Source of the DNA: an uncultured Methanosarcinales archaeon
GTDB taxonomy: Archaea > Nanobdellota > Nanobdellia > Woesearchaeales > DSVV01
Assembly: GCA_964556185.1 (NCBI GenBank)
Contig: CAZKVI010000001.1
Coordinates: forward strand, 7,165 to 71,164
Reading direction: 5' to 3'
DNA: 64,000 bases
Shown here piece by piece: positions 12,167-62,520 of this stretch. The notes beneath the pieces were generated by a model that was given only the letters and a program-made list of their open reading frames with translations, was not told the origin of the DNA and searched no databases. The number at the start of each line of letters is the position of its first letter. Position 1 is the first letter of the stretch. The translations under genes were made by a program, and so were the position numbers.

Positions 12167-12736
12167 ATGGAAATTACACCAGAATTAAAAAAGGATTTAA
12201 GCAAATATATTGGAAAAGAGAGAAAAAGAGGGTTTTCTGATGATAAGATAAAGACAGCTCTAATTAAGGCAGGATATAAAAAGAAGGATCTTAATCCATT
12301 ATTTCAGAAGTCTGGGAAGGTTGAAGTTGCTAAATCTTTTGATATGAAAAATGTTGGAAAAGTATTAACTGTTATTTTTTTAGTACTTTTTATTGGATTT
12401 ATTGCTTATGCTTTTTTGAATAATGAATGTGATACAATTGATTGTTTTATAGAACATGCAAATGAGTGTAAACCAACTTCTTTAGAAGTTGATGATTCTG
12501 GAACAATACATTATTATGAAATACAAGATAATTGTGTATTTTATAGAGAATATACAAAATTAGCTGATGATGAACCTCAAGAGGTTGTTGATTTATTATT
12601 AGGTAAGAGTTTAACTTGTAATTATGCATTAGGTGAATTTAATACAGATTGGGTAAATACAATATCTATTGGATTAGAAGATTGCGAAGGTGAGTTAGTA
12701 GATAGTATGAATGTTATAATAGCAGCTGTTTCTTAG
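12167..12736 (+). CDS. Hypothetical membrane protein. Its N-terminal ~45-aa domain is paralogous to the 57414..58151 product.
   Basis: KRGFSDDKIKTALIKAGYKKKDL resembles TKGFTKDEIREKLLGSGWRTKDV in the other ORF. It is followed by a TM helix and a Cys-containing extracytoplasmic part. Confidence 0.45.
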   Translation: MEITPELKKDLSKYIGKERKRGFSDDKIKTALIKAGYKKKDLNPLFQKSGKVEVAKSFDMKNVGKVLTVIFLVLFIGFIAYAFLNNECDTIDCFIEHANECKPTSLEVDDSGTIHYYEIQDNCVFYREYTKLADDEPQEVVDLLLGKSLTCNYALGEFNTDWVNTISIGLEDCEGELVDSMNVIIAAVS

Positions 12737-54039: not shown

Positions 54040-54687
54040 ATGGCAATAAAAGAAAAAGATTTTGTTGAAATTGAATATACAGGTAAGTTAAAAGACGAGG
54101 ATTTAGTCTTTGATACAACAGATGAGAAACTGAGCAAAGAAGCAGGTATTCATAATGAGAATACCACATATGGACCAGTTGTAGTATGTATTGGTGAAGG
54201 TCAACTTCTTAAAGGTCTTGATGATGACTTAATTGGTAAAGAAGCTGGCAAAGAATATACAGTAGATATTCAACCAGAAGATGGTTTTGGTAAGAAAAAA
54301 GCAGACCTAATCCATTTAATAGGTACATCAAAGTTCAAAAAAGAAGGAATTAATCCAGCACCTGGTATGCAAGTTAATGTTGATGGTGCTTTAGGTATAA
54401 TCAAAACAGTAACTGGTGGTAGAACATTAGTTGATTTTAATCATCCTTTATCTTCAAAAGAATTAGTCTATACATTTAAGGTTAATAAAATTGTAGATGA
54501 TGACTTAGAAAAAGCTAGTGCTTATCTAAAAGTCCAAACAGGGGCAAAAGATGTCACTGCTACATTAGAAAACAATGAGCTTAAAGTGAAGATTGGAGAA
54601 GAAATTCCAGAGGAGTTTCAGGAAAAAATGAATGAGAAATTAACAGGACTTATACCTGCTATAAAGAAAGTTACTTTTTCAAAGTAA
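54040..54687 (+). CDS. FKBP-type peptidyl-prolyl cis-trans isomerase (long archaeal SlyD-like form).
   Basis: DFVEIEYTGKL...VFDTT...GPVVVCIGEGQLLKGLDDDLIGKEAG...LVDFNHPL is strongly similar to archaeal FKBPs. Confidence 0.75.
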   Translation: MAIKEKDFVEIEYTGKLKDEDLVFDTTDEKLSKEAGIHNENTTYGPVVVCIGEGQLLKGLDDDLIGKEAGKEYTVDIQPEDGFGKKKADLIHLIGTSKFKKEGINPAPGMQVNVDGALGIIKTVTGGRTLVDFNHPLSSKELVYTFKVNKIVDDDLEKASAYLKVQTGAKDVTATLENNELKVKIGEEIPEEFQEKMNEKLTGLIPAIKKVTFSK

Positions 54688-54755: not shown

Positions 54756-56156
54756 GTGGAATTAATGGAATCCTTTATAAATAATGCAATGGAAAGAGAT
54801 AAAGAAGAACAAGAAGATAATCAAGAAGAAAATAATCCAGTAATTAAAGATCTGGATGAAACCCAAACTTCTGAAGATGAATATCCAAAAGATGACTATG
54901 TTAATGAATATAGTAAACCAGAGGAAGCTCAAGTTCAAGAAGAAGAATCAGTAGTTGAAACTGATCCAGAACCAGTTGTAGAAGAAGAGAAACAAGAAGA
55001 GGTTAAGGAAGAAGAACCTGAACCTGAAAAACCTGAAGTTAAAAGAGAAATACCAGAGGTTAAATCTGTGCCAAAACAAGAAGTAAGAACAACATCAAAA
55101 CCAATGAGACAACATGAACTTGATGCAGAGCTTGAAATGTTATTAGCTAAGCAAAAAGCAACTGTTAAAGTTATTGGAACAGGTGGTGGTGGTAATAATA
55201 CTATTAATAGAATTACAGAAGTTGGAATTGAAGGTTCTGAAACAATTGCAATGAATACAGATGCTCAAGATTTATTATACACAACAGCTGATAAGAAAAT
55301 TTTGCTAGGAAGGGAATTAACAGGTGGCCTTGGTGCTGGAAGTATTCCAAAGATTGGTGAAGAAGCTGCTATGGAAAGTGAACAAGATATTAAGCATGCA
55401 TTACAAGGAGCAGATATGGTCTTTGTTACATGTGGTCTTGGAGGAGGAACCGGTACAGGTAGTGCACCAGTTGTTGCATCTGTTGCAAAAAAATTAGGAG
55501 CATTAACTGTAGCTATTGTTACTTTACCATTTTCAATGGAAGGTAATAGAAGATATGATAATGCAATTCTTGGATTAGAAAGACTCCAAGAAACAGTAGA
55601 CACATTAATTGTTATTCCAAATGATAAATTACTGGAATTAGCACCAGATTTACCAATGCAAACAGCATTTAAAGTAGCTGATGAAATTTTAACTAATGCA
55701 GTTAAAGGTATTGCAGAATTAGTTACAAAAGCAGGGCTAGTTAATCTAGATTTTGCAGATATTAGGGCTGTTATGGGTAATGGTGGAGTTGCTTTAATTG
55801 GTGTTGGAGAAAGTGACACTGAAAATAGAGCAACTGAAGCAGTTGAAAGAGCTATTAATAATCCTTTACTTGATGCAGACATTACAGGAGCTAATGGAGC
55901 TTTGATTAATGTTGCAGGTGGTCCTGATATGACTTTAGAAGAAGCAAGACGAGTTGTTGAAAGTGTTTCAGAAAAACTCGATGAAGATGCTAGAGTTATT
56001 TGGGGAGCACAAATTGCTGAAGATCTTTCAGGTATGATAAGAACAATGCTTATTGTAACTGGAGTTAAATCTAGTCAAATTCTTGGCGGAGTTAAAAAAC
56101 CAAAAACAAAAGACCAGAAAGAAGCAGAAATGGAGTTAGGAATCGAATTTATGTGA
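54756..56156 (+). CDS. ftsZ: Cell division GTPase FtsZ with a ~130-aa acidic N-terminal extension.
   Basis: [13 protein letters not shown], the tubulin signature [18 protein letters not shown] and the T7 loop. Confidence 0.88.
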
Positions 56157-56168
56157 TTAATAAAAAGA

Positions 56169-56369
56169 GTGATAACCATGGAAGAAGTAAAACCATCATT
56201 AATGAACAAAGGAATGGCATTTCTTCGTGAATGCCGAAGAGTATTAACAGTTACAAAGAAACCAACATCAGAAGAATTTAAAGCTATTGTTAAAGTTTCA
56301 GCTTTAGGTATGGCAGTAATTGGTTTAATTGGTTTTACAATCCAAATGATAAAGATATATTTCTTTTAG
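56169..56369 (+). CDS. secE: Protein translocase subunit SecE / Sec61-gamma.
   Basis: 66-aa protein with a single C-terminal TM. It sits in the conserved ftsZ-secE-nusG position. Confidence 0.6.
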   Translation: MITMEEVKPSLMNKGMAFLRECRRVLTVTKKPTSEEFKAIVKVSALGMAVIGLIGFTIQMIKIYFF

Positions 56370-56378
56370 GTGTAAAAA

Positions 56379-57299
56379 ATGTCAGATGAAAACAATGAAC
56401 AAGAAAAGGTCAATGAACCTGAACAAGAATCAACAGAAGTTTCCGAAGGAAACGAAGAAGTCGAAAAGACTTCTGAAGTAGTTGTTGAAGAGAAAGTAGA
56501 AGAACCAACAAAAGAAGAAGCAACAGAAGAAGTGAAAGCTCCAGCAGAAGAGAAGAAAGAAGAAGCAGTTGAAGAAGAAACAGAAAACAAAGAAGAAGAA
56601 CCAGCTGTTGACGAAGTCAACAAAGAAGCGCCAGCTTCTGTTGAAGAACCTCAAGAAGCTCCTGAGGTTGTCGACGAAACAGAGAAAGAATTCCTTGCTT
56701 CTGTAAAAGAAGATGTAGAAGAAGCAAAGAAAGAAAAAGAAGAAAAGAAAGCTGAAGAAGAGAAAGAAAAAGCTGAAGCTGAAGAAGCATCTGATAAAGA
56801 AGAAGATGAACACTCAATCTCTACAAAAATATTTGCATTAAGAACAACTGCAAATAGAGAAGATCAAGTTATGGATTTCTTAGGAAGTAATATTACAAAG
56901 AAAAAACTTGCAGTTTATTCTATCATAAGACCTCATGGAATGAGGGGTTACATTTTTATGGAAGCAGACAAAAGGATTGAAGCAGAACAAGCTGCATTTA
57001 ATGTTCCTTATGCTAGAGGAGTTTTAGCAAATGAAATTCAATACAAAGAAATTGAACATATGTTAGAACAAGTCAAAAAAGATGTCAATATTCAAAAGAA
57101 TGACATTGTTGAACTTATTTCAGGTCCTTTCAAAAGAGAAAAAGCAAAAGTTAGTAGAATTGATAAAACCAAGGAAGAAGTTGTTGTTGAATTACTTGAA
57201 GCAGCAGTACCAATTCCAATTACTGTTAGATTAGATGCAGTAAAGGTTATTAGAAGAGATACTGAAGAATCTGAAGAAGGCGAAGAACAAGAAGAGTGA
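56379..57299 (+). CDS. spt5: Transcription elongation factor Spt5 (NusG) with a ~140-aa Glu/Lys-rich N-terminal extension.
   Basis: NGN domain (ISTKIFALRTTANREDQVMDFL...GYIFMEAD) and KOW (GPFKREKAKVSRIDKTKEEVVVELL). Confidence 0.75.
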   Translation: MSDENNEQEKVNEPEQESTEVSEGNEEVEKTSEVVVEEKVEEPTKEEATEEVKAPAEEKKEEAVEEETENKEEEPAVDEVNKEAPASVEEPQEAPEVVDETEKEFLASVKEDVEEAKKEKEEKKAEEEKEKAEAEEASDKEEDEHSISTKIFALRTTANREDQVMDFLGSNITKKKLAVYSIIRPHGMRGYIFMEADKRIEAEQAAFNVPYARGVLANEIQYKEIEHMLEQVKKDVNIQKNDIVELISGPFKREKAKVSRIDKTKEEVVVELLEAAVPIPITVRLDAVKVIRRDTEESEEGEEQEE

Positions 57300-57413
57300 G
57301 CTCTTCTATTTTATTTTCTTTATTTTTTCATTTATTCTATATATTTAATTATTAATCATATATGTCATATCGAAGAATATTTATATTAAAACTTCTAGAT
57401 TATTGTAAAAGAG

Positions 57414-58151
57414 GTGAATAAGATAGATGTTGAAGATACTTTAAGGCTTATTAAATATATAAAGCAAGAACAAACCAAGGGTTTTACTAAAGATGAGATA
57501 AGGGAAAAACTACTTGGTTCTGGTTGGCGTACTAAGGATGTTGATAAGTATCTTACAGATTATGTTTTGGAAGGAGACCTTGAGAAAGCCTCTGCTGATA
57601 CTATTGAATTATTTGCAAAATATGGTAAATTCTTATTACCAGGTGAGCAGATTAAATCAACACACATGGTTGGTTTTTATAATGTTGTTTTTACTGAAAA
57701 TAGAGTTATTTTATTAAAGAAATTCCCTAAAAACATATTAGAATTTAATTTCAAAGATATTGAATTAGTTGAATATTATACAGACATACAATGGCTACAT
57801 TTACTTTATTTTCTTGGTTATTTAGTTGGTTCTATGGTTTTCTTTTTTTATCATAGTTTTCTTTGGGAGAATATTGTAATGTTTGCCTCAATTACACAAA
57901 GATTCTTTGATTTCCAACCTTTTTTAGGAATGAATGTTTTAGCTATTTTGATATTTGTATATTTAATTTATATGGCATTAAGAGATCTATATTATTTTAT
58001 AGCTTCTTTTACAGGTAAATTTAGGATAATGCCAAGGGTTATGGGGCCTACAGATATTATGTGTAAGCTTACTGGAGATGTAGAAAGAGTTATCCAAGTA
58101 ATTGAAGAAAAGATCCATGATTATGAGAAAATAGATAGGAAAACTTTATGA
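57414..58151 (+). CDS. Hypothetical membrane protein. Its N-terminal domain is paralogous to the 12167..12736 product.
   Basis: Shared N-terminal ~45-aa motif, a PH-like middle part and 3 TM helices. Confidence 0.4.
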   Translation: MNKIDVEDTLRLIKYIKQEQTKGFTKDEIREKLLGSGWRTKDVDKYLTDYVLEGDLEKASADTIELFAKYGKFLLPGEQIKSTHMVGFYNVVFTENRVILLKKFPKNILEFNFKDIELVEYYTDIQWLHLLYFLGYLVGSMVFFFYHSFLWENIVMFASITQRFFDFQPFLGMNVLAILIFVYLIYMALRDLYYFIASFTGKFRIMPRVMGPTDIMCKLTGDVERVIQVIEEKIHDYEKIDRKTL

Positions 58152-58256
58152 CTCAAATGTTAATCATATAAATCATTCTTAATTGTTTCAAGAATTAATT
58201 ATATTTTCCTATCACAAAATAGAAAAACATTTATATGCTCTCACGTCGACAAGACT

Positions 58257-59534
58257 GTGATTTATATGGTTTCTAATTTAAAATTAAAAAAATCTGATTG
58301 GCAAAAGATTATTTTAGGAATTAGAAAAAAGTTAAATTTGAGTCAAACTAAATTAGCACGAAAGCTTTGTCTAAGTAGACAAACTATTAGCAGATTTGAA
58401 TCTAAACAAAGAATTCCAAATCATAGTTATCAAAAAAAGATCTTGGATCTTATTAGTAATGAAGATTTAGATATTTGTGAGTTAATAAATGAAGGTACAA
58501 AGTATTCCAAAGAGTACATTAAAAGACAGAAAAACGAGAAACTAGATCTAAAAAGATCAGTTGAATTAGCAGAATTAATAGGAATTATTCTTGGTGATGG
58601 TGAAATAATAAGGGATGGTACAATGAGAATCTCTTTTGATCCTAAAAAAGATAAAAATTTCCTTAATAGAAGAGTTATTTTTCTTATAAAACAATTATTA
58701 AACAAGAAAATTACTTATGAAAGCAATAAAAGAATTGCTTTTGGAAATATTGCTTTTGTAAGGTATTTAGAACAAGATTGTGGTTTAAAACCAGGAAGTA
58801 AGTTTGAAAATAATTCACAAATACCTAAGTGGTGTTTTGAAAAACAAGAGTATATTTCAGCTGTTTTAAGAGGATTATTTGATACTGATGGTTATTTTGG
58901 GTATTATGATTTCACTACAGAAATAATGTATGGAAGATTTTCAGATAAATGTACTAATTTAGTTCAAGATATAATAAAAAGCCTTAAGATACTGGGGTTG
59001 AATTCCAGTGTAAAACATACTAAAGATGGAAGATTTAAAATCAGAATATGTAAAAGAACAGATGTTTTGACTTTTTTTGAGAAAATTGGAACCTCAAATA
59101 TAAAACACATTGTTCGGTTCTTATTATGGAGATTTAATAGGTATGAAGCCAAGATTGAATTAGAAGGATTAGCAAACTTAATATTGAAAACAAGGTCCCT
59201 TTACCCAAATATAGAAGCTATACAACTGCCTTTCTTCTGGAATTTGGATAATATATGCTTCAAATCTTATGTACTAGAAGATTTGAATGAAATAGAAGGA
59301 GCACAAATTAAAAATATTTATAAATGGGACATAGTTTCTCGAGACTTAATTAAATATATGGGTAACAATAAGTTAGCAAATATATTTAATATAAATAACA
59401 GAAGTGTTAGAAAATGGCGTGAAGGGAGAAGAATTCCTTCTGACATAAATGCTTCGAAATTGATCAAATTATTAAAAGAGCATAATTTGACTCCAAGTGA
59501 TTATATAATGAAAAATGGCAAAGGAAACAATTGA
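58257..59534 (+). CDS. LAGLIDADG homing-endonuclease-like protein flanked by N- and C-terminal HTH domains.
   Basis: Two LAGLIDADG motifs ~97 aa apart (LIGIILGDGEI and LRGLFDTDGYF). N-terminal XRE-type HTH (LNLSQTKLARKLCLSRQTISRFE) and a C-terminal HTH-like segment (NRSVRKWREGRRIPS). Confidence 0.7.
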   Translation: MIYMVSNLKLKKSDWQKIILGIRKKLNLSQTKLARKLCLSRQTISRFESKQRIPNHSYQKKILDLISNEDLDICELINEGTKYSKEYIKRQKNEKLDLKRSVELAELIGIILGDGEIIRDGTMRISFDPKKDKNFLNRRVIFLIKQLLNKKITYESNKRIAFGNIAFVRYLEQDCGLKPGSKFENNSQIPKWCFEKQEYISAVLRGLFDTDGYFGYYDFTTEIMYGRFSDKCTNLVQDIIKSLKILGLNSSVKHTKDGRFKIRICKRTDVLTFFEKIGTSNIKHIVRFLLWRFNRYEAKIELEGLANLILKTRSLYPNIEAIQLPFFWNLDNICFKSYVLEDLNEIEGAQIKNIYKWDIVSRDLIKYMGNNKLANIFNINNRSVRKWREGRRIPSDINASKLIKLLKEHNLTPSDYIMKNGKGNN

Positions 59535-60311
59535 TGCTCTTATTGAAGGAGGCAAAGCAACTGCAGCTCCGCCCCTTGGGCCAGCATTTTAGGTCTCAAA
59601 ACCTATGCTAGAGGACCTGTAGGGGTTAACATCGGCGAAGTTGTAGCTGAAATCAATAAGAGAACTGCTGATTTTAAAGGTATGAAAGTACCTGTTAAGG
59701 TTATAGTAGATACAGATACAAAACAGTTTGAAATTGAAGTAGGTACTCCACCAGCTGCTCAACTTATTAAAACAGAAGCTAAAATTCAAAAAGCAGCATC
59801 TAATCCATTAACAGACAAAGTAGCAGATCTAAAGATCGAGCAAATTATTAAAATATCTAAAATGAAGGAATCTTCTTTATTAGGAAAAGATAATTTCCAA
59901 AGAGTAAAAGAAATTTGTGGAACATGTCAAAGTATGGGTGTTATGGTTGAAGGTAAACCAGCAAATGAAACTATTGCAGACATTAACAAAGGTTCTTTTA
60001 AAGAAAAGATTGAGTCTGGTAAGACTGAATTAAGTGCAGATGAACTTAAAGAAATGGAAGAAGAAAAGAAGAGACTACAAGAAGAACTTGAAAAGAAACG
60101 AACAGAATTCGAAGCAACTGGTAAACAAATTATGAAAGAAATGGAAGGCAAAGAATCTAAAGCAATCAGAGCAAAGATGGTAGAAGAAGGTCTTCCACAA
60201 CAAATTGTTGATCAATTAATGCCAACTGAAAAAGAAGGCGAAGGCGCTGCAAAAGGTGGAGAAGCTAAAGAAGGCGCACCTGCTGAAGCTAATGGCGATA
60301 AGAAAGAATAA
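59515..60311 (+). CDS. rpl11: Ribosomal protein uL11 (L11), with its reading frame interrupted by a 23-nt element near 59589-59612. It carries a ~95-aa charged C-terminal extension.
   Basis: Frame 1 reads MAKETIDALIEGGKATAAPPLGPAF then TAG. Frame 0 continues (LGLKTYAR)GPVGVNIGEVVAEINKRTADFKGMKVPVKVIVDTDTKQFEIEVGTPPAAQLIK... Both halves match the L11 N-domain consensus (GGKATAGPPLGPALGPLGVNI...). The 5' end overlaps the LAGLIDADG ORF by 20 nt. Confidence 0.75.
59589..59611 (+). other. 23-nt frame-disrupting intervening element inside rpl11. Candidates are a BHB/BHL-type mini-intron, a translational bypass element or an indel artefact.
   Basis: Removing ttaggtctcaaaacctatgctag (or the 1-nt-shifted equivalent) restores PPLGPA(L/F)GPVGVNI. 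The UAG stop lies at the base of a potential hairpin (59590-59597 pairing with 59611-59619). Confidence 0.45.
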
Positions 60312-60390
60312 TTCTTTATTTTTAGTTTATATATTATTTTATCATTAAAAAGTACTAATCTTTATATAGAATAGGGTATTCCCAATTGTT

Positions 60391-62520
60391 ATGGGGTTGA
60401 CAGATTTATTAAAAGGTAAAGAAAGAAAAAAACAAGAACAGGCAGCAGTAGAAAGAATTGCAGAAGTTGCAGGGATGGAAAGTGCAGAACTTCTTGGGTA
60501 TCTTCCTGCTAGTCTTATTTATGATCGTGTAAAAACCTTAGAAGGAATTTGTGAAAACGTTAAAGTTGATGGGGAAATTGGAATTAAACGAATTCTTGAT
60601 TCATTATCAAATACTCAAAAATTATTAAGAAAAAATCCAAAGGGTTTGGTTGCTCTTGTAGATAAATATAAAGAACACACATGGGGATTATTAGATGCAT
60701 TTGGAAATAATGCTGTAAGACTAGAAAGAAGGAAGAAATATGGAAGAATTATTCGAGCAGTAAAAGAAAATGCAGGTAGTGATGTAGGAATTGCATTTTC
60801 TTATTTAAAAGTTCCAGTGATGCGTAAATATGGAGATTTGTTAATTTATGCTACTCATTCAGCAGGAGAAAACACAGGCACTATGTTTGATCGTATGAAT
60901 GATTTTTTTGAGGATTATAGAAATAGAAGAACGATTAGAAAGGTTACTGGAATAAGTGCTATGGTTGGTATGGCACTTTTTACAGTTGTAGGATTATTTG
61001 CTTCTTATTCAGATGGATTTACATTATCAAAGCGAGAAGCTTGGGAAGCTTTTACAGATGATGTTAGTGAAGTATCCCATGAAGTTAGAGATATTGGAGA
61101 GGCAGTAGGTCCAAGTTCAAGTGTACCTTTTGTAGGGGGAGAGAAAGAAGACCCCTATATTCGTATGTATCCTTCTTTAACTCCTCCGGGTGGAAATGTA
61201 GGAGTTAATGCAAGGGTTTCAGCTTTTACAGAATTTGGTTTTGAACCTGGAACTATTCCAAGAACACCAGAAAAAAGATATGGATTAGAATTATATGGAG
61301 ATCATGAATTAGTTTTTAATTCTTTTTCTGTTGAAGATGATTGTAGAGAAACATTTTCTTCTGAAGGATATACTATATTTGAATGTAGGAATGATGAAGT
61401 AGATGTTTCTTTTTCAACTGGTTCTTCTAATTTTGAAGATTATTTTCATATTAATGTAGGTTATTCAGTTAATTATACGGAGCCAGGACAACATACATAT
61501 TTATTTAGGGTGTTTGATAGAAATCAAACACTTGCTTCAGATATGGTTACAGTTACATTTACAGGAGAAGAAATGGATTTACATCCTTATTTTACTTCTT
61601 TTTCATTTTGTGATGAAGATGATGTAAATAGTGCAAGTTCTTTGTGTTCACGAGAAGGTGACTTAGGAATGAAAGTTGAGGATATAGGTGATAATCCTGA
61701 CTTAGATAGAGTAGAAGTTTTTCTAAATGGTAAAAAAGTAGGCACACAGAAGATAACAAACCCAGAATCTATTGGAGAAGTTAAGGAGACTGCTTTAGTT
61801 ACTTATGATACATCTGGTCTAACTTTAAATCCAGGAGATTTTGTTACAGCACATGTTTTTGATGGTTCTGGACAATTTGGAAGTGTACGTCCTCTTAAAG
61901 TTGAGGTTGCTTCAAAACCTTCAACTTTAGAACTTGAAGAACTAGTTATTGCAGATGCTGAAGTAAGCGTCGACGATGCAAAACTTCCAGTTTTAAATAC
62001 TACTCAACTCTTTCATGATGCTGAAGAATCATCTAGAGAAACAGTAGAAACAACTCCTACAGAACCAGGAGTTTTCAATGGTTATGAACCTGGATTTAAT
62101 TTTGCTAGAAGATCTCAACAAGAATATAAAGATAGAATTGGTGCTTATGCAAGAGATACTTTTTTTGTTCCAGAGGGAAGAGCAATTAATTATCTTGAAA
62201 CTGATGAAAGTAGTGTTTTCTTTAGACGTTATGCTGAGAACACAACAATGAGTACATATTTTTATTGTAATGGCCCTGATGGTAATCCAGAAAAAGAAAA
62301 GATAATATTTTCTTTCATAGATACTGAATCTGGACACAGATTTGACTACCATATATTCCAAGACGGAAGAACAAGAGAGATTATAACAGACCAAGATGGA
62401 AATAGATCAACAGAAAGTGACGCTGAAACTACTCGCCAGCATCTTGCAGCTATTTTCCAATACTTTGTAAACTCTGGAGAAGTATTAGAAAGTGTACCTG
62501 TTCCAGGTCCAATTGAATAA
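60391..62520 (+). CDS. Hypothetical large protein (709 aa) with one TM helix near aa 185-205.
   Basis: ORF only. It occupies the position where rpl1 would normally follow rpl11. Confidence 0.4.
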   Translation: MGLTDLLKGKERKKQEQAAVERIAEVAGMESAELLGYLPASLIYDRVKTLEGICENVKVDGEIGIKRILDSLSNTQKLLRKNPKGLVALVDKYKEHTWGLLDAFGNNAVRLERRKKYGRIIRAVKENAGSDVGIAFSYLKVPVMRKYGDLLIYATHSAGENTGTMFDRMNDFFEDYRNRRTIRKVTGISAMVGMALFTVVGLFASYSDGFTLSKREAWEAFTDDVSEVSHEVRDIGEAVGPSSSVPFVGGEKEDPYIRMYPSLTPPGGNVGVNARVSAFTEFGFEPGTIPRTPEKRYGLELYGDHELVFNSFSVEDDCRETFSSEGYTIFECRNDEVDVSFSTGSSNFEDYFHINVGYSVNYTEPGQHTYLFRVFDRNQTLASDMVTVTFTGEEMDLHPYFTSFSFCDEDDVNSASSLCSREGDLGMKVEDIGDNPDLDRVEVFLNGKKVGTQKITNPESIGEVKETALVTYDTSGLTLNPGDFVTAHVFDGSGQFGSVRPLKVEVASKPSTLELEELVIADAEVSVDDAKLPVLNTTQLFHDAEESSRETVETTPTEPGVFNGYEPGFNFARRSQQEYKDRIGAYARDTFFVPEGRAINYLETDESSVFFRRYAENTTMSTYFYCNGPDGNPEKEKIIFSFIDTESGHRFDYHIFQDGRTREIITDQDGNRSTESDAETTRQHLAAIFQYFVNSGEVLESVPVPGPIE

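What the first reader, a model, noticed from the sequence alone, without database searches (positions are those of the whole stretch)
57300..60390. HTH-LAGLIDADG gene and a membrane-protein gene inserted into the conserved secE-spt5-rpl11 cluster
In archaea, secE-nusG(spt5)-rpl11-rpl1-rpl10-rpl12 is one of the most conserved gene strings. Here spt5 and rpl11 are separated by a 245-aa membrane protein and a 425-aa protein with two LAGLIDADG motifs flanked by XRE-like HTH domains.

The LAGLIDADG ORF overlaps the rpl11 start by 20 nt. rpl11 is followed by an unrelated 709-aa protein rather than rpl1.

A free-standing homing-endonuclease-like gene sits directly beside a ribosomal gene that itself carries an odd 23-nt interruption. 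This suggests a mobile or selfish element, or its domesticated regulatory descendant, targeting this locus.
Basis: partly seen in the sequence, partly recalled or inferred. Interest (0 to 1): 0.65.

Follow-up and report, generated by a model that had tools for sequence, protein, structure and literature searches.

The report
Selfish endonuclease gene beside intron-split rpl11
A rare LAGLIDADG endonuclease gene sits just upstream of the ribosomal protein L11 gene in some Woesearchaeota; the genomes that carry it have the most conserved spot of that gene either split by a tiny tRNA-type (bulge-helix-bulge) intron or mutated, which looks like a selfish homing endonuclease and the host's immunity to it.

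Summary
Between spt5 and rpl11 lie a 245-aa membrane-protein gene and a 425-aa HTH–double-LAGLIDADG–HTH gene whose end overlaps the rpl11 start by 20 nt. rpl11 carries a 23-nt interruption.

The LAGLIDADG protein belongs to a discrete family of about 50 sequence clusters in Woesearchaeota and allies. In all 17 distinct loci examined it lies directly upstream of rpl11. None of 66 other species retrieved through L11 has it, and carriers are scattered over the host tree.

The 23-nt interruption is a bulge-helix-bulge mini-intron. It occurs at the same nucleotide in seven lineages (16–24 nt), shows covariation, and its removal restores the conserved PPLGPALGP.

Carriage of the gene goes with alteration of that rpl11 site. 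Fifteen of 17 carriers have the intron (6) or substitutions at otherwise invariant bases just 5' of the intron site (9). Only 5 of 66 non-carriers do (Fisher p≈1e-10, uncorrected for phylogeny).

Best reading: a free-standing homing endonuclease that targets rpl11, with the intron or the substitutions as immunity. This would be an archaeal counterpart of phage "collaborative homing". Cleavage and splicing have not been tested.

The membrane-protein gene is unrelated variable cargo.

The parts
58257..59534 (+). Free-standing HTH / double-LAGLIDADG / HTH gene (425 aa from the GTG; 422 aa from the ATG at 58266). It is a putative homing endonuclease.
   Evidence: Pfam HTH_3 and LAGLIDADG_3. All 29 aligned family members hit LAGLIDADG_3 and 28 hit HTH_3. 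The AF2 model has pLDDT 90.9. The best PDB fold matches are I-Tsp061I, intein endonuclease domains, WhiA and I-DmoI. The orthologue family is P0001-P0052.
58320..58421 (+). N-terminal XRE-type helix-turn-helix domain (aa 22-55).
   Evidence: Pfam HTH_3, E=3.7e-13. G21, R23, R41 and E48 are invariant in alignment A1.
58566..58607 (+). LAGLIDADG motif 1 (LAELIGIILGDGEI), with Asp114 at the catalytic position.
   Evidence: G113, D114 and G115 are conserved in at least 90% of 29 family members. One member, P0025, lacks the motif through a 42-aa deletion.
58866..58898 (+). LAGLIDADG motif 2 (LRGLFDTDGYF), with Asp211 at the catalytic position.
   Evidence: R205, G206, F208, D209 and G212 are invariant. 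D211 is conserved in at least 90% of members; only P0052 has Ala there.
59325..59504 (+). C-terminal helical, HTH-like domain (aa ~357-416, containing RSVRKWREGRRIPS). It is missing in a short-form subgroup of the family.
   Evidence: Weak P22_Cro, HTH_28 and HTH_17 hits. The model predicts helices 357-416 with pLDDT above 90. The domain is absent in P0022, P0023, P0026, P0029, P0033, P0036 and P0039.
59515..59588 (+). rpl11 exon 1 (MAKETIDALIEGGKATAAPPLGPA plus the first two bases of the Leu codon). It overlaps the LAGLIDADG ORF by 20 nt.
59589..59611 (+). 23-nt bulge-helix-bulge mini-intron in rpl11 (UUAGGUCUCAAAACCUAUGCUAG). An in-frame UAG follows directly after the 5' splice site.
   Evidence: The minimum-free-energy fold gives two 3-nt bulges separated by a 4-bp helix. 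Cutting after the second base of each bulge removes exactly 23 nt and restores PALGP. An intron sits at the same site in six other lineages, with compensatory changes.
59578..59617 (+). Full BHB motif. The elements are: outer helix 59578-82 with 59613-17 (the two Gly-Pro codon pairs GGNCC); central helix 59583-86 with 59606-09; bulges 59587-89 and 59610-12; inner hairpin 59590-59605.
   Evidence: On alignment A2, 93.4% of cells are paired and 5 pairs change on both sides; 0 of 500 shuffles reach this, and slid controls give 25-53%.
59612..60311 (+). rpl11 exon 2. It holds the rest of the N-terminal domain, the RNA-binding domain and a charged C-terminal extension of about 100 aa.
   Evidence: Pfam Ribosomal_L11, the spliced translation, and conservation of the extension in related loci.
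57414..58151 (+). 245-aa two-pass membrane-protein gene. It is variable cargo between spt5 and the endonuclease gene, not a conserved part of the element.
   Evidence: There is no tblastn match in any of about 90 related loci. It does have homologues elsewhere: 60 representatives, the best at 54% identity. It has no Pfam or NCBIfam family. Other carriers hold different genes in this position.

Best explanation
The 425-aa gene is a free-standing LAGLIDADG homing endonuclease gene (HEG), extended by HTH DNA-binding domains at both ends. It lives immediately upstream of rpl11.

Its inferred target is the DNA that encodes the near-invariant L11 motif PPLGPALGP, about 75 bp into rpl11, in genomes that lack the gene. 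A double-strand break there would be repaired from a carrier allele, which copies the endonuclease gene and the adjacent rpl11 5' region into the recipient ('intronless homing').

Carrier genomes must protect their own rpl11. They appear to do so in two ways:
- A 16-24-nt bulge-helix-bulge intron is inserted in the middle of the site. The host tRNA-splicing endonuclease and ligase would remove it from the mRNA, so the protein stays canonical ('collaborative homing').
- Alternatively, substitutions sit in the two codons just 5' of that position (GPA to GSS, GPQ or AQT).

What is shown in silico:
- the architecture and the conserved catalytic-position residues;
- strict linkage to rpl11;
- patchy distribution across hosts;
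- the BHB structure, with covariation;
- the association between carriage of the gene and alteration of the site.

What is inferred: nuclease activity, the identity of the target, immunity, gene conversion, and splicing in vivo.
For: 1. Architecture. The protein has HTH_3 and LAGLIDADG_3 domains. The model is confident (pLDDT 90.9), and its core matches the archaeal intron endonucleases I-Tsp061I and I-DmoI and intein endonuclease domains. Asp at the catalytic position of both motifs is kept in at least 90% of 29 members.

2. Linkage to rpl11. The gene lies directly upstream of rpl11 in all 17 distinct loci. This holds even where spt5 has been inverted away (L158) or separated by other genes (L160), and in genomes that keep rpl11-rpl1-rpl10(-rpl12) (L156, L161).

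3. The gene is optional. Among 66 species representatives found through L11, none has the gene or a remnant of it, and most have spt5 next to rpl11. Carriers are scattered in FtsZ+Spt5+L11 and FtsZ+L11 trees, with non-carrier sisters.

4. Site alteration.
- Of 17 carriers, 6 have the intron, 4 have GSS, 3 have GPQ and 2 have LAQ[TS].
- Two are canonical, and one of those (L156) has lost the motif-2 Asp.
- Of 66 non-carriers, 61 are canonical (Fisher p=1.5e-10).
- Intron alleles have zero mismatches at invariant exon bases, with one exception (L158, two, downstream of the site).
- Intron-less carrier alleles have 1-9 mismatches, and in most they fall in the two codons just 5' of the intron site.

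5. The intron. It sits at the same nucleotide (74 nt after the ATG) in 7 lineages, at 16-24 nt. The fold is hBHBh' or a relaxed form of it. 93% of cells are paired and 5 pairs show compensatory changes. Excision restores A-L-G-P each time.

6. Incongruence with the host. Identity of the endonuclease is uncorrelated with FtsZ identity among Woesearchaeota pairs (rho -0.08).
- L003, L005, L076 and L159 have nearly identical L11 C-terminal parts, yet carry three different site states.
- Their endonucleases are 52-53% identical where measured (L003 against L076) and 68-72% at nucleotide level.
- By contrast, the endonuclease+rpl11 block of L159 and L076 is 86-87% identical in nucleotides, above their FtsZ and Spt5 flanks at 79-82%.

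7. Degenerate copies, as a HEG life cycle predicts. There is a 42-aa deletion of motif 1 in P0025/L159, a D211A change in P0052, and C-terminally truncated forms. One allele has the intron but no endonuclease gene (L063), as expected from a short conversion tract.

8. Precedent. In cyanophage S-PM2, the free-standing endonuclease F-CphI is blocked by a group I intron at its psbA target. This was named collaborative homing (PMC6083498).
Against: - There is no biochemical evidence for cleavage or splicing. No spliced-product sequence was found by exact look-up.
- No pair of near-identical genomes differing only by the gene was found. Flanks of the closest carrier/non-carrier pairs are about 77-84% identical in nucleotides, and endonuclease copies are mostly about 50% identical. 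No recent mobility is therefore seen, and long-term retention under host selection is not excluded.
- Most copies are intact and have many invariant residues. That also fits a useful host protein.
- L002 has an intact-looking endonuclease gene and a canonical GPALGP site, with only one upstream difference.
- XRE-type HTH domains are typical of regulators.
- Carriers and non-carriers were sampled by different routes. The trees are neighbour-joining only, and the Fisher test ignores shared ancestry.
Confidence: 0.6

Rival explanations
1. The protein is a domesticated, WhiA-like DNA-binding regulator. It uses the LAGLIDADG scaffold plus HTH domains as a sequence-specific transcription or translation regulator of rpl11, to which it is coupled by overlapping reading frames. 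In this reading the altered rpl11 site is its operator, or is unrelated.
For: The architecture of a LAGLIDADG core plus HTH resembles WhiA, which is among the top fold matches (3hyi and 8dy9). The gene is always co-oriented with rpl11 and abuts or overlaps its start. Most copies are intact despite about 50% divergence.
Against: - Both catalytic-position Asp residues are conserved. From general knowledge, WhiA has lost them.
- Only 1 of 29 members gives even a weak LAGLIDADG_WhiA hit.
- The gene is absent from 66 of 66 other species that have the same rpl11.
- An operator model does not explain why intron alleles keep perfectly canonical exon bases while intron-less carriers are mutated at exactly those bases.
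- It also does not explain degenerate copies.
Confidence: 0.17
2. The gene is a selfish homing endonuclease, but its target lies elsewhere, for example the spt5-rpl11 intergenic insertion point or the rpl11 start. The intron and the GSS/GPQ variants would then be linked passengers carried along by co-conversion, with no immunity role.
For: Free-standing HEGs co-convert flanking markers (PMC2790892 abstract). Endonuclease identity correlates with L11 identity (rho 0.63) but not with FtsZ identity. Site variants also occur in a few non-carriers: L012, L031, L063 and L074.
Against: At least four different kinds of alteration all fall within the two codons 5' of one nucleotide position. These are otherwise invariant bases, and the alterations occur in different endonuclease subclades and host lineages. 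The GSS alleles use different Ser codon families (AGC and TCN), which argues for repeated selection at this position rather than hitch-hiking of one haplotype.
Confidence: 0.15
3. The protein is a maturase or RNA chaperone, acting on rpl11 pre-mRNA to help splice the mini-intron, as LAGLIDADG maturases do for group I introns.
For: The gene is adjacent to an intron-containing gene. From general knowledge, LAGLIDADG maturases exist, I-AniI among them; I-AniI is a weak sequence match.
Against: Eleven of 17 carriers have no intron, and one intron allele has no such gene (L063). From established knowledge, BHB introns are processed by the tRNA-splicing endonuclease and ligase without maturases.
Confidence: 0.03
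4. The 23-nt interruption is an assembly error, a pseudogene lesion, or a programmed frameshift or bypass signal rather than an intron.
For: An in-frame stop directly follows the break, and there is no transcript evidence.
Against: Seven independent assemblies have an insertion at the identical nucleotide. The insertions differ in sequence and length (16, 16, 17, 18, 23, 24 and 24 nt), all fit a BHB with covariation, and all restore the Leu codon exactly. Lengths of 18 and 24 nt do not shift the frame but still carry a stop. A take-off/landing bypass would not restore Leu (direct reading).
Confidence: 0.02

Closest known systems
Collaborative homing: the free-standing endonuclease F-CphI and the psbA group I intron of cyanophage S-PM2 (Zeng, Bonocora & Shub 2009, as described in PMC6083498). 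Related case: mobE / I-TevIII trans homing in phage T4 (PMC2790892).
   Same: An optional free-standing endonuclease gene lies next to a conserved gene. The target is the intron insertion site of intron-less alleles. The intron, which has no ORF of its own, blocks self-cleavage and can be mobilised in trans.
   Different: This case is in cellular archaea, not phages. The enzyme is a LAGLIDADG protein with flanking HTH domains, not an Endo VII or HNH enzyme. The intron is a 16-24-nt BHB intron removed by host enzymes, not a self-splicing group I intron. An alternative immunity by amino-acid substitution coexists in the same family. Activity is untested here.
Archaeal intron-encoded LAGLIDADG homing endonucleases (I-DmoI, I-Tsp061I, I-PorI) in rRNA BHB introns.
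   Same: The monomeric double-LAGLIDADG fold is the best structural match (2dch TM 0.69; I-DmoI about 0.6). Both involve archaeal hosts and an association with BHB introns.
   Different: Those enzymes are encoded inside large rRNA introns and have about 170-200 aa with no extra domains. This one is free-standing, has 425 aa with N- and C-terminal HTH domains, and is paired with an intron far too small to encode anything, in a protein-coding gene.
cbf5 pre-mRNA BHB intron of Crenarchaeota (PMC2738675), and the HVO_1309 intron of Haloferax (PMC10485636).
   Same: All are short BHB introns (16-44 nt in cbf5) in an archaeal mRNA, with relaxed motifs in some lineages, gain and loss among relatives, and mis-annotation of the split gene by gene callers.
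   Different: The gene (rpl11) and the lineage (Woesearchaeota/DPANN) are different. The outer helix is built from two exonic Gly-Pro codon pairs. There is a statistical association with a neighbouring endonuclease gene, which was explicitly not found for cbf5.
WhiA (DUF199), a bacterial LAGLIDADG-derived transcription factor.
   Same: Both have a double-LAGLIDADG scaffold fused to an HTH domain, and WhiA is a significant fold match (3hyi).
   Different: WhiA is bacterial, broadly conserved and vertically inherited, and lacks the catalytic acidic residues (general knowledge). This family keeps them, is patchy, and has an XRE-type N-terminal HTH instead of the WhiA N-domain.

Membership tests
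LAGLIDADG endonuclease superfamily (monomeric, double-motif) | Two LAGLIDADG helices, with a profile match to the family. | tested here: met
   Motifs lie at aa 104-117 and 204-214. LAGLIDADG_3 gives E=3.5e-9, and 29 of 29 family members match it.
LAGLIDADG endonuclease superfamily (monomeric, double-motif) | An acidic residue at the metal-binding position of each motif. | tested here: met
   D114 and D211 are conserved in at least 90% of 29 members. The exceptions are P0052 (D211A) and P0025 (motif 1 deleted).
LAGLIDADG endonuclease superfamily (monomeric, double-motif) | A pseudo-symmetric alpha-beta-beta-alpha-beta-beta-alpha fold resembling solved enzymes. | tested here: met
   The AF2 model has pLDDT 90.9. 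Foldseek matches are I-Tsp061I at E=1.4e-6 (TM 0.69), followed by I-DmoI, PI-SceI and I-SceI.
LAGLIDADG endonuclease superfamily (monomeric, double-motif) | Site-specific double-strand DNA cleavage. | not testable with these tools
   This needs a purified protein and rpl11 DNA substrates.
Free-standing homing endonuclease gene (intronless or collaborative homing) | An optional gene at a fixed position between conserved genes, present or absent among related genomes. | tested here: met
   Seventeen carriers all have the gene upstream of rpl11. None of 66 L11-retrieved species has it or a remnant. Carriers are scattered among non-carriers in host trees.
Free-standing homing endonuclease gene (intronless or collaborative homing) | A conserved target in the neighbouring gene that is intact in genomes lacking the endonuclease and disrupted in genomes carrying it. 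| tested here: met
   The test is indirect, because the target is inferred. The site is altered in 15 of 17 carriers and 5 of 66 non-carriers (p=1.5e-10). In most intron-less carriers the substitutions fall in the two codons just 5' of the intron site.
Free-standing homing endonuclease gene (intronless or collaborative homing) | Horizontal spread: a gene history incongruent with the host's. | tested here: inconclusive
   There is no correlation with FtsZ divergence (rho -0.08). The L159/L076 block is more similar than its flanks, and related hosts (flanking genes 79-84% identical in nucleotides) carry alleles about 52% identical. But only NJ trees and identity comparisons were made, and no recent transfer was seen.
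Free-standing homing endonuclease gene (intronless or collaborative homing) | Unidirectional gene conversion after cleavage. | not testable with these tools
   This needs genetic crosses or a heterologous assay.
Archaeal bulge-helix-bulge (splicing-endonuclease) intron | Two 3-nt bulges on opposite strands separated by a 4-bp helix, with the splice sites in the bulges. | tested here: met
   The geometry is canonical in the 23- and 24-nt introns (window, L005, L007). In the 16-18-nt introns it is relaxed, with the 5' bulge merged into the loop.
Archaeal bulge-helix-bulge (splicing-endonuclease) intron | The structure is conserved by compensatory change. | tested here: met
   93.4% of cells are paired and 5 pairs change on both sides. 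0 of 500 shuffles reach this, and slid controls give 25-53%.
Archaeal bulge-helix-bulge (splicing-endonuclease) intron | Excision restores the reading frame and the conserved protein. | tested here: met
   All seven introns restore PPLGPALGP and a full-length L11.
Archaeal bulge-helix-bulge (splicing-endonuclease) intron | Cleavage by EndA and ligation in vivo. | not testable with these tools
   The exact spliced-protein look-up found nothing, which is uninformative. RNA-seq or an in-vitro assay is needed.
WhiA family | WhiA-type domains, with loss of the catalytic acidic residues. | tested here: not met
   Only 1 of 29 members gives a weak LAGLIDADG_WhiA hit, and no other WhiA-type family appears among the families matched by the 29 members. 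The catalytic-position Asp residues are retained.
Intron- or intein-encoded homing endonuclease | The ORF is embedded in a self-splicing intron, a BHB intron or an intein. | tested here: not met
   The ORF is independent and lies upstream of rpl11. The intron is 16-24 nt, and no intein splicing domains were detected.

The most novel reading that the evidence does not exclude
This would be the first archaeal case of collaborative homing. A free-standing LAGLIDADG endonuclease would drive itself through Woesearchaeota populations by cutting the most conserved segment of rpl11. A BHB mini-intron, spliced by the host tRNA-splicing machinery, would serve as portable immunity and be spread by the same breaks. 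That would give a concrete selective reason why BHB introns can arise and persist in archaeal protein-coding genes, and it would add a ribosomal-protein gene to the very short list of spliced archaeal mRNAs.
Probability: 0.5. Interest if true: 0.88.

Novelty: new variant of a known kind. Interest (0 to 1): 0.78.

Why it matters
Only two archaeal mRNAs are generally cited as spliced by the tRNA-splicing endonuclease: cbf5 and HVO_1309 (PMC10485636). An rpl11 intron in DPANN archaea, backed by covariation across seven lineages, would be a third, and the first in a ribosomal-protein gene. Gene callers currently truncate or mis-fuse this gene.

The link to a neighbouring free-standing LAGLIDADG gene offers a testable origin story for such mini-introns. 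In this story they protect against homing endonucleases, extending the phage concept of collaborative homing to cellular archaea and to a different intron class. The family could also supply new meganuclease scaffolds with built-in accessory HTH domains.

The case is also a caution about synteny. Conserved gene order among carriers does not argue against mobility for a site-specific element.

Tried and rejected
- Rfam (gathering thresholds) and ARAGORN found nothing in the window.
- The MFE z-score of the 81-nt region is unremarkable (-0.59). The case for the intron rests on geometry and covariation, not on stability.
- I looked for the endonuclease gene or remnants of it near rpl11 in 66 other species, using tblastn and a family HMM over all stop-free frames. 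None was found.
- I looked for the 245-aa and 709-aa genes in about 90 related loci. None was found, so I reject the idea that they form one element with the endonuclease gene.
- I considered that the endonuclease gene is a fixed, vertically inherited host gene, because the first three relatives had the same gene order. I rejected this after the L11-based sampling.
- I considered maturase, translational-bypass and sequencing-error explanations of the interruption. They are rejected for the reasons given under the rival explanations.
- The metagenome scan with the family profile mostly returned generic LAGLIDADG genes; only 6 of the 80 loci (L076-L081) were true family members.
- The exact look-up of six spliced L11 proteins, as possible metatranscriptome products, found none.
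- The literature searches found no report of an rpl11 intron or of this gene family.
- NCBIfam has no family covering the protein.

Full report
**1. What is in the window.**

The + strand carries the following genes in order:
- an FKBP gene (54040-54687);
- ftsZ (54756-56156);
- secE (56169-56369);
- spt5 (56379-57299);
- a 245-aa ORF with two hydrophobic segments (57414-58151);
- a 425-aa ORF (58257-59534);
- a split rpl11 (59515-60311);
- a 709-aa orphan ORF (60391-62520).

DTD2 then follows on the minus strand.

Pfam confirms SecE, Spt5 (NGN+KOW), the L11 RNA-binding domain and DTD2. For the 425-aa protein it gives HTH_3 at aa 22-55 (E=3.7e-13), LAGLIDADG_3 at aa 198-278 (E=3.5e-9) and a weak Cro-like HTH at aa 363-395.

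The LAGLIDADG ORF overlaps the rpl11 ATG (59515) by 20 nt. G+C is lower over the two inserted genes (0.25-0.29) than in the flanks (0.32-0.37).

**2. The 425-aa protein is a well-folded double-LAGLIDADG protein with HTH domains at both ends.**

A search of 5.8 billion proteins gave a discrete family. P0001 to P0052 score E from 1e-278 to 6e-64, are 34-67% identical, have 350-455 aa, and are named Woesearchaeota, Nanoarchaeota or Aenigmarchaeota where named at all. The scores then drop sharply to generic LAGLIDADG_3 proteins at E~1e-19.

In a 29-sequence alignment the second motif (LRGLFDTDG) is almost invariant and the first (LGDGE) nearly so. This includes the Asp at the metal-binding position of each motif, D114 and D211. 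The exceptions are informative:
- P0052 has D211A.
- P0025 lacks motif 1 through a 42-aa deletion.
- A subgroup lacks the C-terminal HTH domain.

AlphaFold2 on this alignment gives pLDDT 90.9 and pTM 0.81. Foldseek against the PDB ranks, in order, the archaeal intron-encoded I-Tsp061I, intein endonuclease domains, WhiA and I-DmoI. No curated NCBIfam family covers the protein.

**3. The gene is tied to rpl11 but is optional.**

In every one of 17 distinct loci that carry a family member, the gene lies directly upstream of rpl11, co-oriented with it and abutting or overlapping its start. These loci are the window, L001, L002, L003, L005, L007, L008, L076, L077, L079, L081 and L156-L161.

The linkage holds in several rearranged contexts:
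- in L158, where the ftsZ-secE-spt5 block is inverted away;
- in L160, where other genes separate spt5 from it;
- in L156 and L161, which keep rpl11-rpl1-rpl10(-rpl12).

Had I stopped there, the gene would look like a fixed host gene. I therefore retrieved 66 species representatives through the spliced L11 protein. None of them has the gene, either by tblastn or by a family HMM run over all stop-free frames. Most have spt5 50-100 nt upstream of rpl11. Some have unrelated genes at that junction, such as a pirin-like or a deaminase-like gene.

In neighbour-joining trees of FtsZ+Spt5+L11 and of FtsZ+L11, carriers are scattered, each beside non-carriers. The nearest L11 neighbour of L079 and of L081 is the non-carrier L062.

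**4. The '23-nt interruption' is a bulge-helix-bulge intron.**

The minimum-free-energy fold of 59560-59640 has these elements:
- an outer helix;
- a 4-bp helix (AGCA/UGCU) flanked on opposite strands by two 3-nt bulges (UUU and AGA);
- an inner hairpin.

Cutting after the second base of each bulge removes exactly 59589-59611. It joins GCA UU|A GGA, giving ...PPLGPALGPVGVN... and a 257-aa L11.

The same nucleotide position, 74 nt after the ATG, is interrupted in six other lineages:
- L005/L006, 24 nt;
- L007, 24 nt;
- L008/L009, 16 nt;
- L063, 16 nt;
- L081, 17 nt;
- L158, 18 nt.

The 24- and 18-nt insertions keep the frame but contain a stop codon. All seven introns have UAG or UAA right after the 5' splice site.

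The inner hairpins differ completely in sequence yet still pair. The central helix changes by compensation: AGCA/UGCU, AGCU/GGCU, GGCU/GGUC and CGCU/GGCG. The outer helix is formed by the two exonic Gly-Pro codon pairs (GGNCC with GGNCC), whose synonymous third positions co-vary.

On the seven-sequence alignment, 93.4% of cells are paired and five pairs change on both sides. No shuffle out of 500 reaches the observed values, and slid controls give 25-53% pairing. The three long introns are canonical hBHBh'. The short ones are relaxed, with the 5' bulge merged into the loop.

Gene callers have mis-handled all of these loci. L11 is truncated to its C-terminal domain, or exon 1 is fused to the endonuclease ORF.

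Published archaeal mRNA introns of this kind are cbf5 in Crenarchaeota (16-44 nt) and HVO_1309 in Haloferax. I found no report of one in rpl11 or in DPANN archaea. Splicing in vivo is not shown; an exact look-up of six spliced products found nothing.

**5. Carriage of the endonuclease gene goes with alteration of one spot in rpl11.**

The state of the PPLGPALGP site splits sharply by carriage:

| Site state | Carriers (17) | Non-carriers (66) |
|---|---|---|
| Intron | 6 | 1 (L063) |
| PP[VI]GSSLGP (GSS) | 4 (L001, L076, L077, L159) | 1 (L012) |
| PPLGPQLGP (GPQ) | 3 (L003, L079, L161) | 0 |
| [PQ]QLAQ[TS]LGP | 2 (L157, L160) | 0 |
| GPS | 0 | 2 |
| GPAI | 0 | 1 |
| Canonical | 2 (L002, L156) | 61 |

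One of the two canonical carriers, L156, is the one whose endonuclease has lost the motif-2 Asp. The Fisher exact test gives p=1.5e-10, but it is not corrected for shared ancestry.

The nucleotide view is sharper:
- The spliced junctions of the intron alleles have no mismatch at positions that are invariant among non-carriers. L158 is the exception, with two mismatches downstream.
- Every intron-less carrier allele has 1-9 mismatches.
- In most of them the mismatches fall in the two codons just 5' of the intron insertion site.

The GSS alleles use different serine codon families (AGC and TCN). This argues for repeated selection of the same change rather than one inherited haplotype.

So carriers either split the site and keep it canonical, or leave it unsplit and mutate it. 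That complementary pattern is what is expected if the canonical sequence is dangerous in the presence of this protein.

**6. Gene history against host history.**

Among Woesearchaeota carriers, endonuclease identity is uncorrelated with FtsZ identity (rho -0.08). It is correlated with identity of the linked L11 (rho 0.63).

L003, L005, L076 and L159 have almost identical L11 C-terminal parts (distance 0.04-0.11), and their flanking genes are 79-84% identical in nucleotides. Yet they show three different site states: GPQ, intron and GSS. Where measured, L003 against L076, their endonucleases are 52-53% identical in amino acids; at nucleotide level they are 68-72% identical.

Conversely, the endonuclease+rpl11 block of L159 and L076 is 86-87% identical in nucleotides. 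That is more than their ftsZ and spt5 flanks, at 79-82%.

This decoupling fits allele replacement by recombination. It is not proof, because the trees are neighbour-joining only and no very recent transfer was seen.

**7. Interpretation.**

The most economical reading is a free-standing homing endonuclease gene that targets the PPLGPALGP-coding stretch of rpl11 in genomes lacking it. On this reading it is protected at home in two ways. One is a BHB mini-intron that host enzymes remove from the mRNA. The other is substitutions next to the cleavage centre.

The intron-only allele (L063) and the GSS-only allele (L012) are the expected products of short conversion tracts or of later loss of the endonuclease gene. 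The degenerate copies (P0025, P0052 and the truncated forms) fit the usual cycle of invasion, decay and loss.

The phage precedent is collaborative homing. There, F-CphI is free-standing beside psbA, cuts intron-less psbA, and is blocked by an ORF-less group I intron. Trans homing of I-TevIII by mobE is a related case.

What is new here is the host (cellular DPANN archaea), the enzyme class with accessory HTH domains, the intron class, and the coexistence of two immunity routes. I put this reading at about 0.6.

The main rivals are:
- a domesticated WhiA-like regulator (0.17);
- a selfish endonuclease with a different target, the site variants being passengers (0.15).

Maturase and artefact explanations are unlikely.

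**8. The other genes in the finding.**

The 245-aa membrane protein is a real gene with homologues elsewhere (60 representatives, the best at 54% identity). It is absent from all related loci. Other carriers have different genes between spt5 and the endonuclease gene. It is variable cargo at a recombination-prone junction, not part of the element.

The 709-aa ORF after rpl11 has no family and no counterpart in related loci. Separation of rpl11 from rpl1-rpl10-rpl12 is general in these Woesearchaeota; only L156 and L161 keep them together.

**9. Verdict.**

It is sharpened into a specific and testable mechanism that links the endonuclease gene to the rpl11 interruption.

The intron itself is well supported (about 0.9). 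The homing and immunity mechanism is inferred. In novelty it is a new variant of a known kind.

Noticed in passing
window 59990-60311; also L002 7231-8013 and L003 7122-7913: L11 carries a C-terminal extension of about 100 aa: a charged coiled-coil-like stretch, an 'LP..I(I/V)..L(L/M)P' motif, and an Ala/Gly/Glu/Lys-rich tail. It is conserved across Woesearchaeota loci (L11 is 240-275 aa instead of about 160). The tail recalls the acidic tails of stalk proteins, and rpl11 is unlinked from rpl10/rpl12 in most of these genomes.
   Followed up: partly
window 56379-56810 (Spt5) and 54756-55145 (FtsZ): Spt5 and FtsZ both have long, highly acidic, low-complexity N-terminal extensions of about 145 and 130 aa. 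Relatives have shorter ones.
   Followed up: no
L082 3761-5275 and L083 160-1680: A distant paralogous subfamily with the same HTH-LAGLIDADG-HTH architecture (504-506 aa, 28-30% identical, with an extra N-terminal domain) lies convergent to the topoisomerase VI subunit A gene and overlaps its 3' end in two metagenome contigs. These may be endonucleases with a different essential-gene target.
   Followed up: partly
window 59590-59592; same position in L005, L007, L008, L063, L081 and L158: Every rpl11 intron has an in-frame UAG or UAA immediately after the 5' splice-site codon. Unspliced mRNA would therefore give only a 25-aa peptide. This holds even for the 18- and 24-nt introns that keep the frame.
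   Followed up: partly
window 57380-57387, 58231-58237 and 60361-60368: A TTTATAT(T/A/G) box lies 23-34 nt upstream of the start codons of the 245-aa, 425-aa and 709-aa ORFs. This suggests separate archaeal promoters with very short or no leaders. No such box lies at that distance upstream of the rpl11 ATG, so rpl11 may be co-transcribed with the endonuclease gene.
   Followed up: no
window 57447-57560 (aa 12-50 of the 245-aa protein) and window 12197-12295: The N-terminal module of about 40 aa in the membrane protein (…EIREKLLGSGWRTKDVDKYL…) recurs as up to 10 tandem copies in large proteins elsewhere (for example P0137, 1358 aa). It also has a weak match elsewhere in the window.
   Followed up: no
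L159 3001-4170 (P0025): This endonuclease copy has a 126-nt in-frame deletion that removes the first LAGLIDADG motif. The copy is nevertheless 86-87% identical in nucleotides to that of L076. It looks like a recently shared but decaying copy.
   Followed up: partly
L041, L044, L048, L052, L055, L059, L064 and L065, between spt5 and rpl11: In several Woesearchaeota without the endonuclease gene, the spt5-rpl11 junction holds 1-4 kb of unrelated genes (pirin-like, cytidine-deaminase-like, flavodoxin-like and two large unknown ORFs). The junction is a general insertion hotspot.
   Followed up: partly
L158 2928-3167: A small ORF with a weak GIY-YIG nuclease hit lies about 0.8 kb upstream of the LAGLIDADG gene, on the opposite strand, in the rearranged locus.
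   Followed up: no
window 60391-62520: The 709-aa ORF between rpl11 and DTD2 has no Pfam or NCBIfam family and no counterpart in any related locus. Related loci have DTD2 directly after rpl11, or other genes there.
   Followed up: partly
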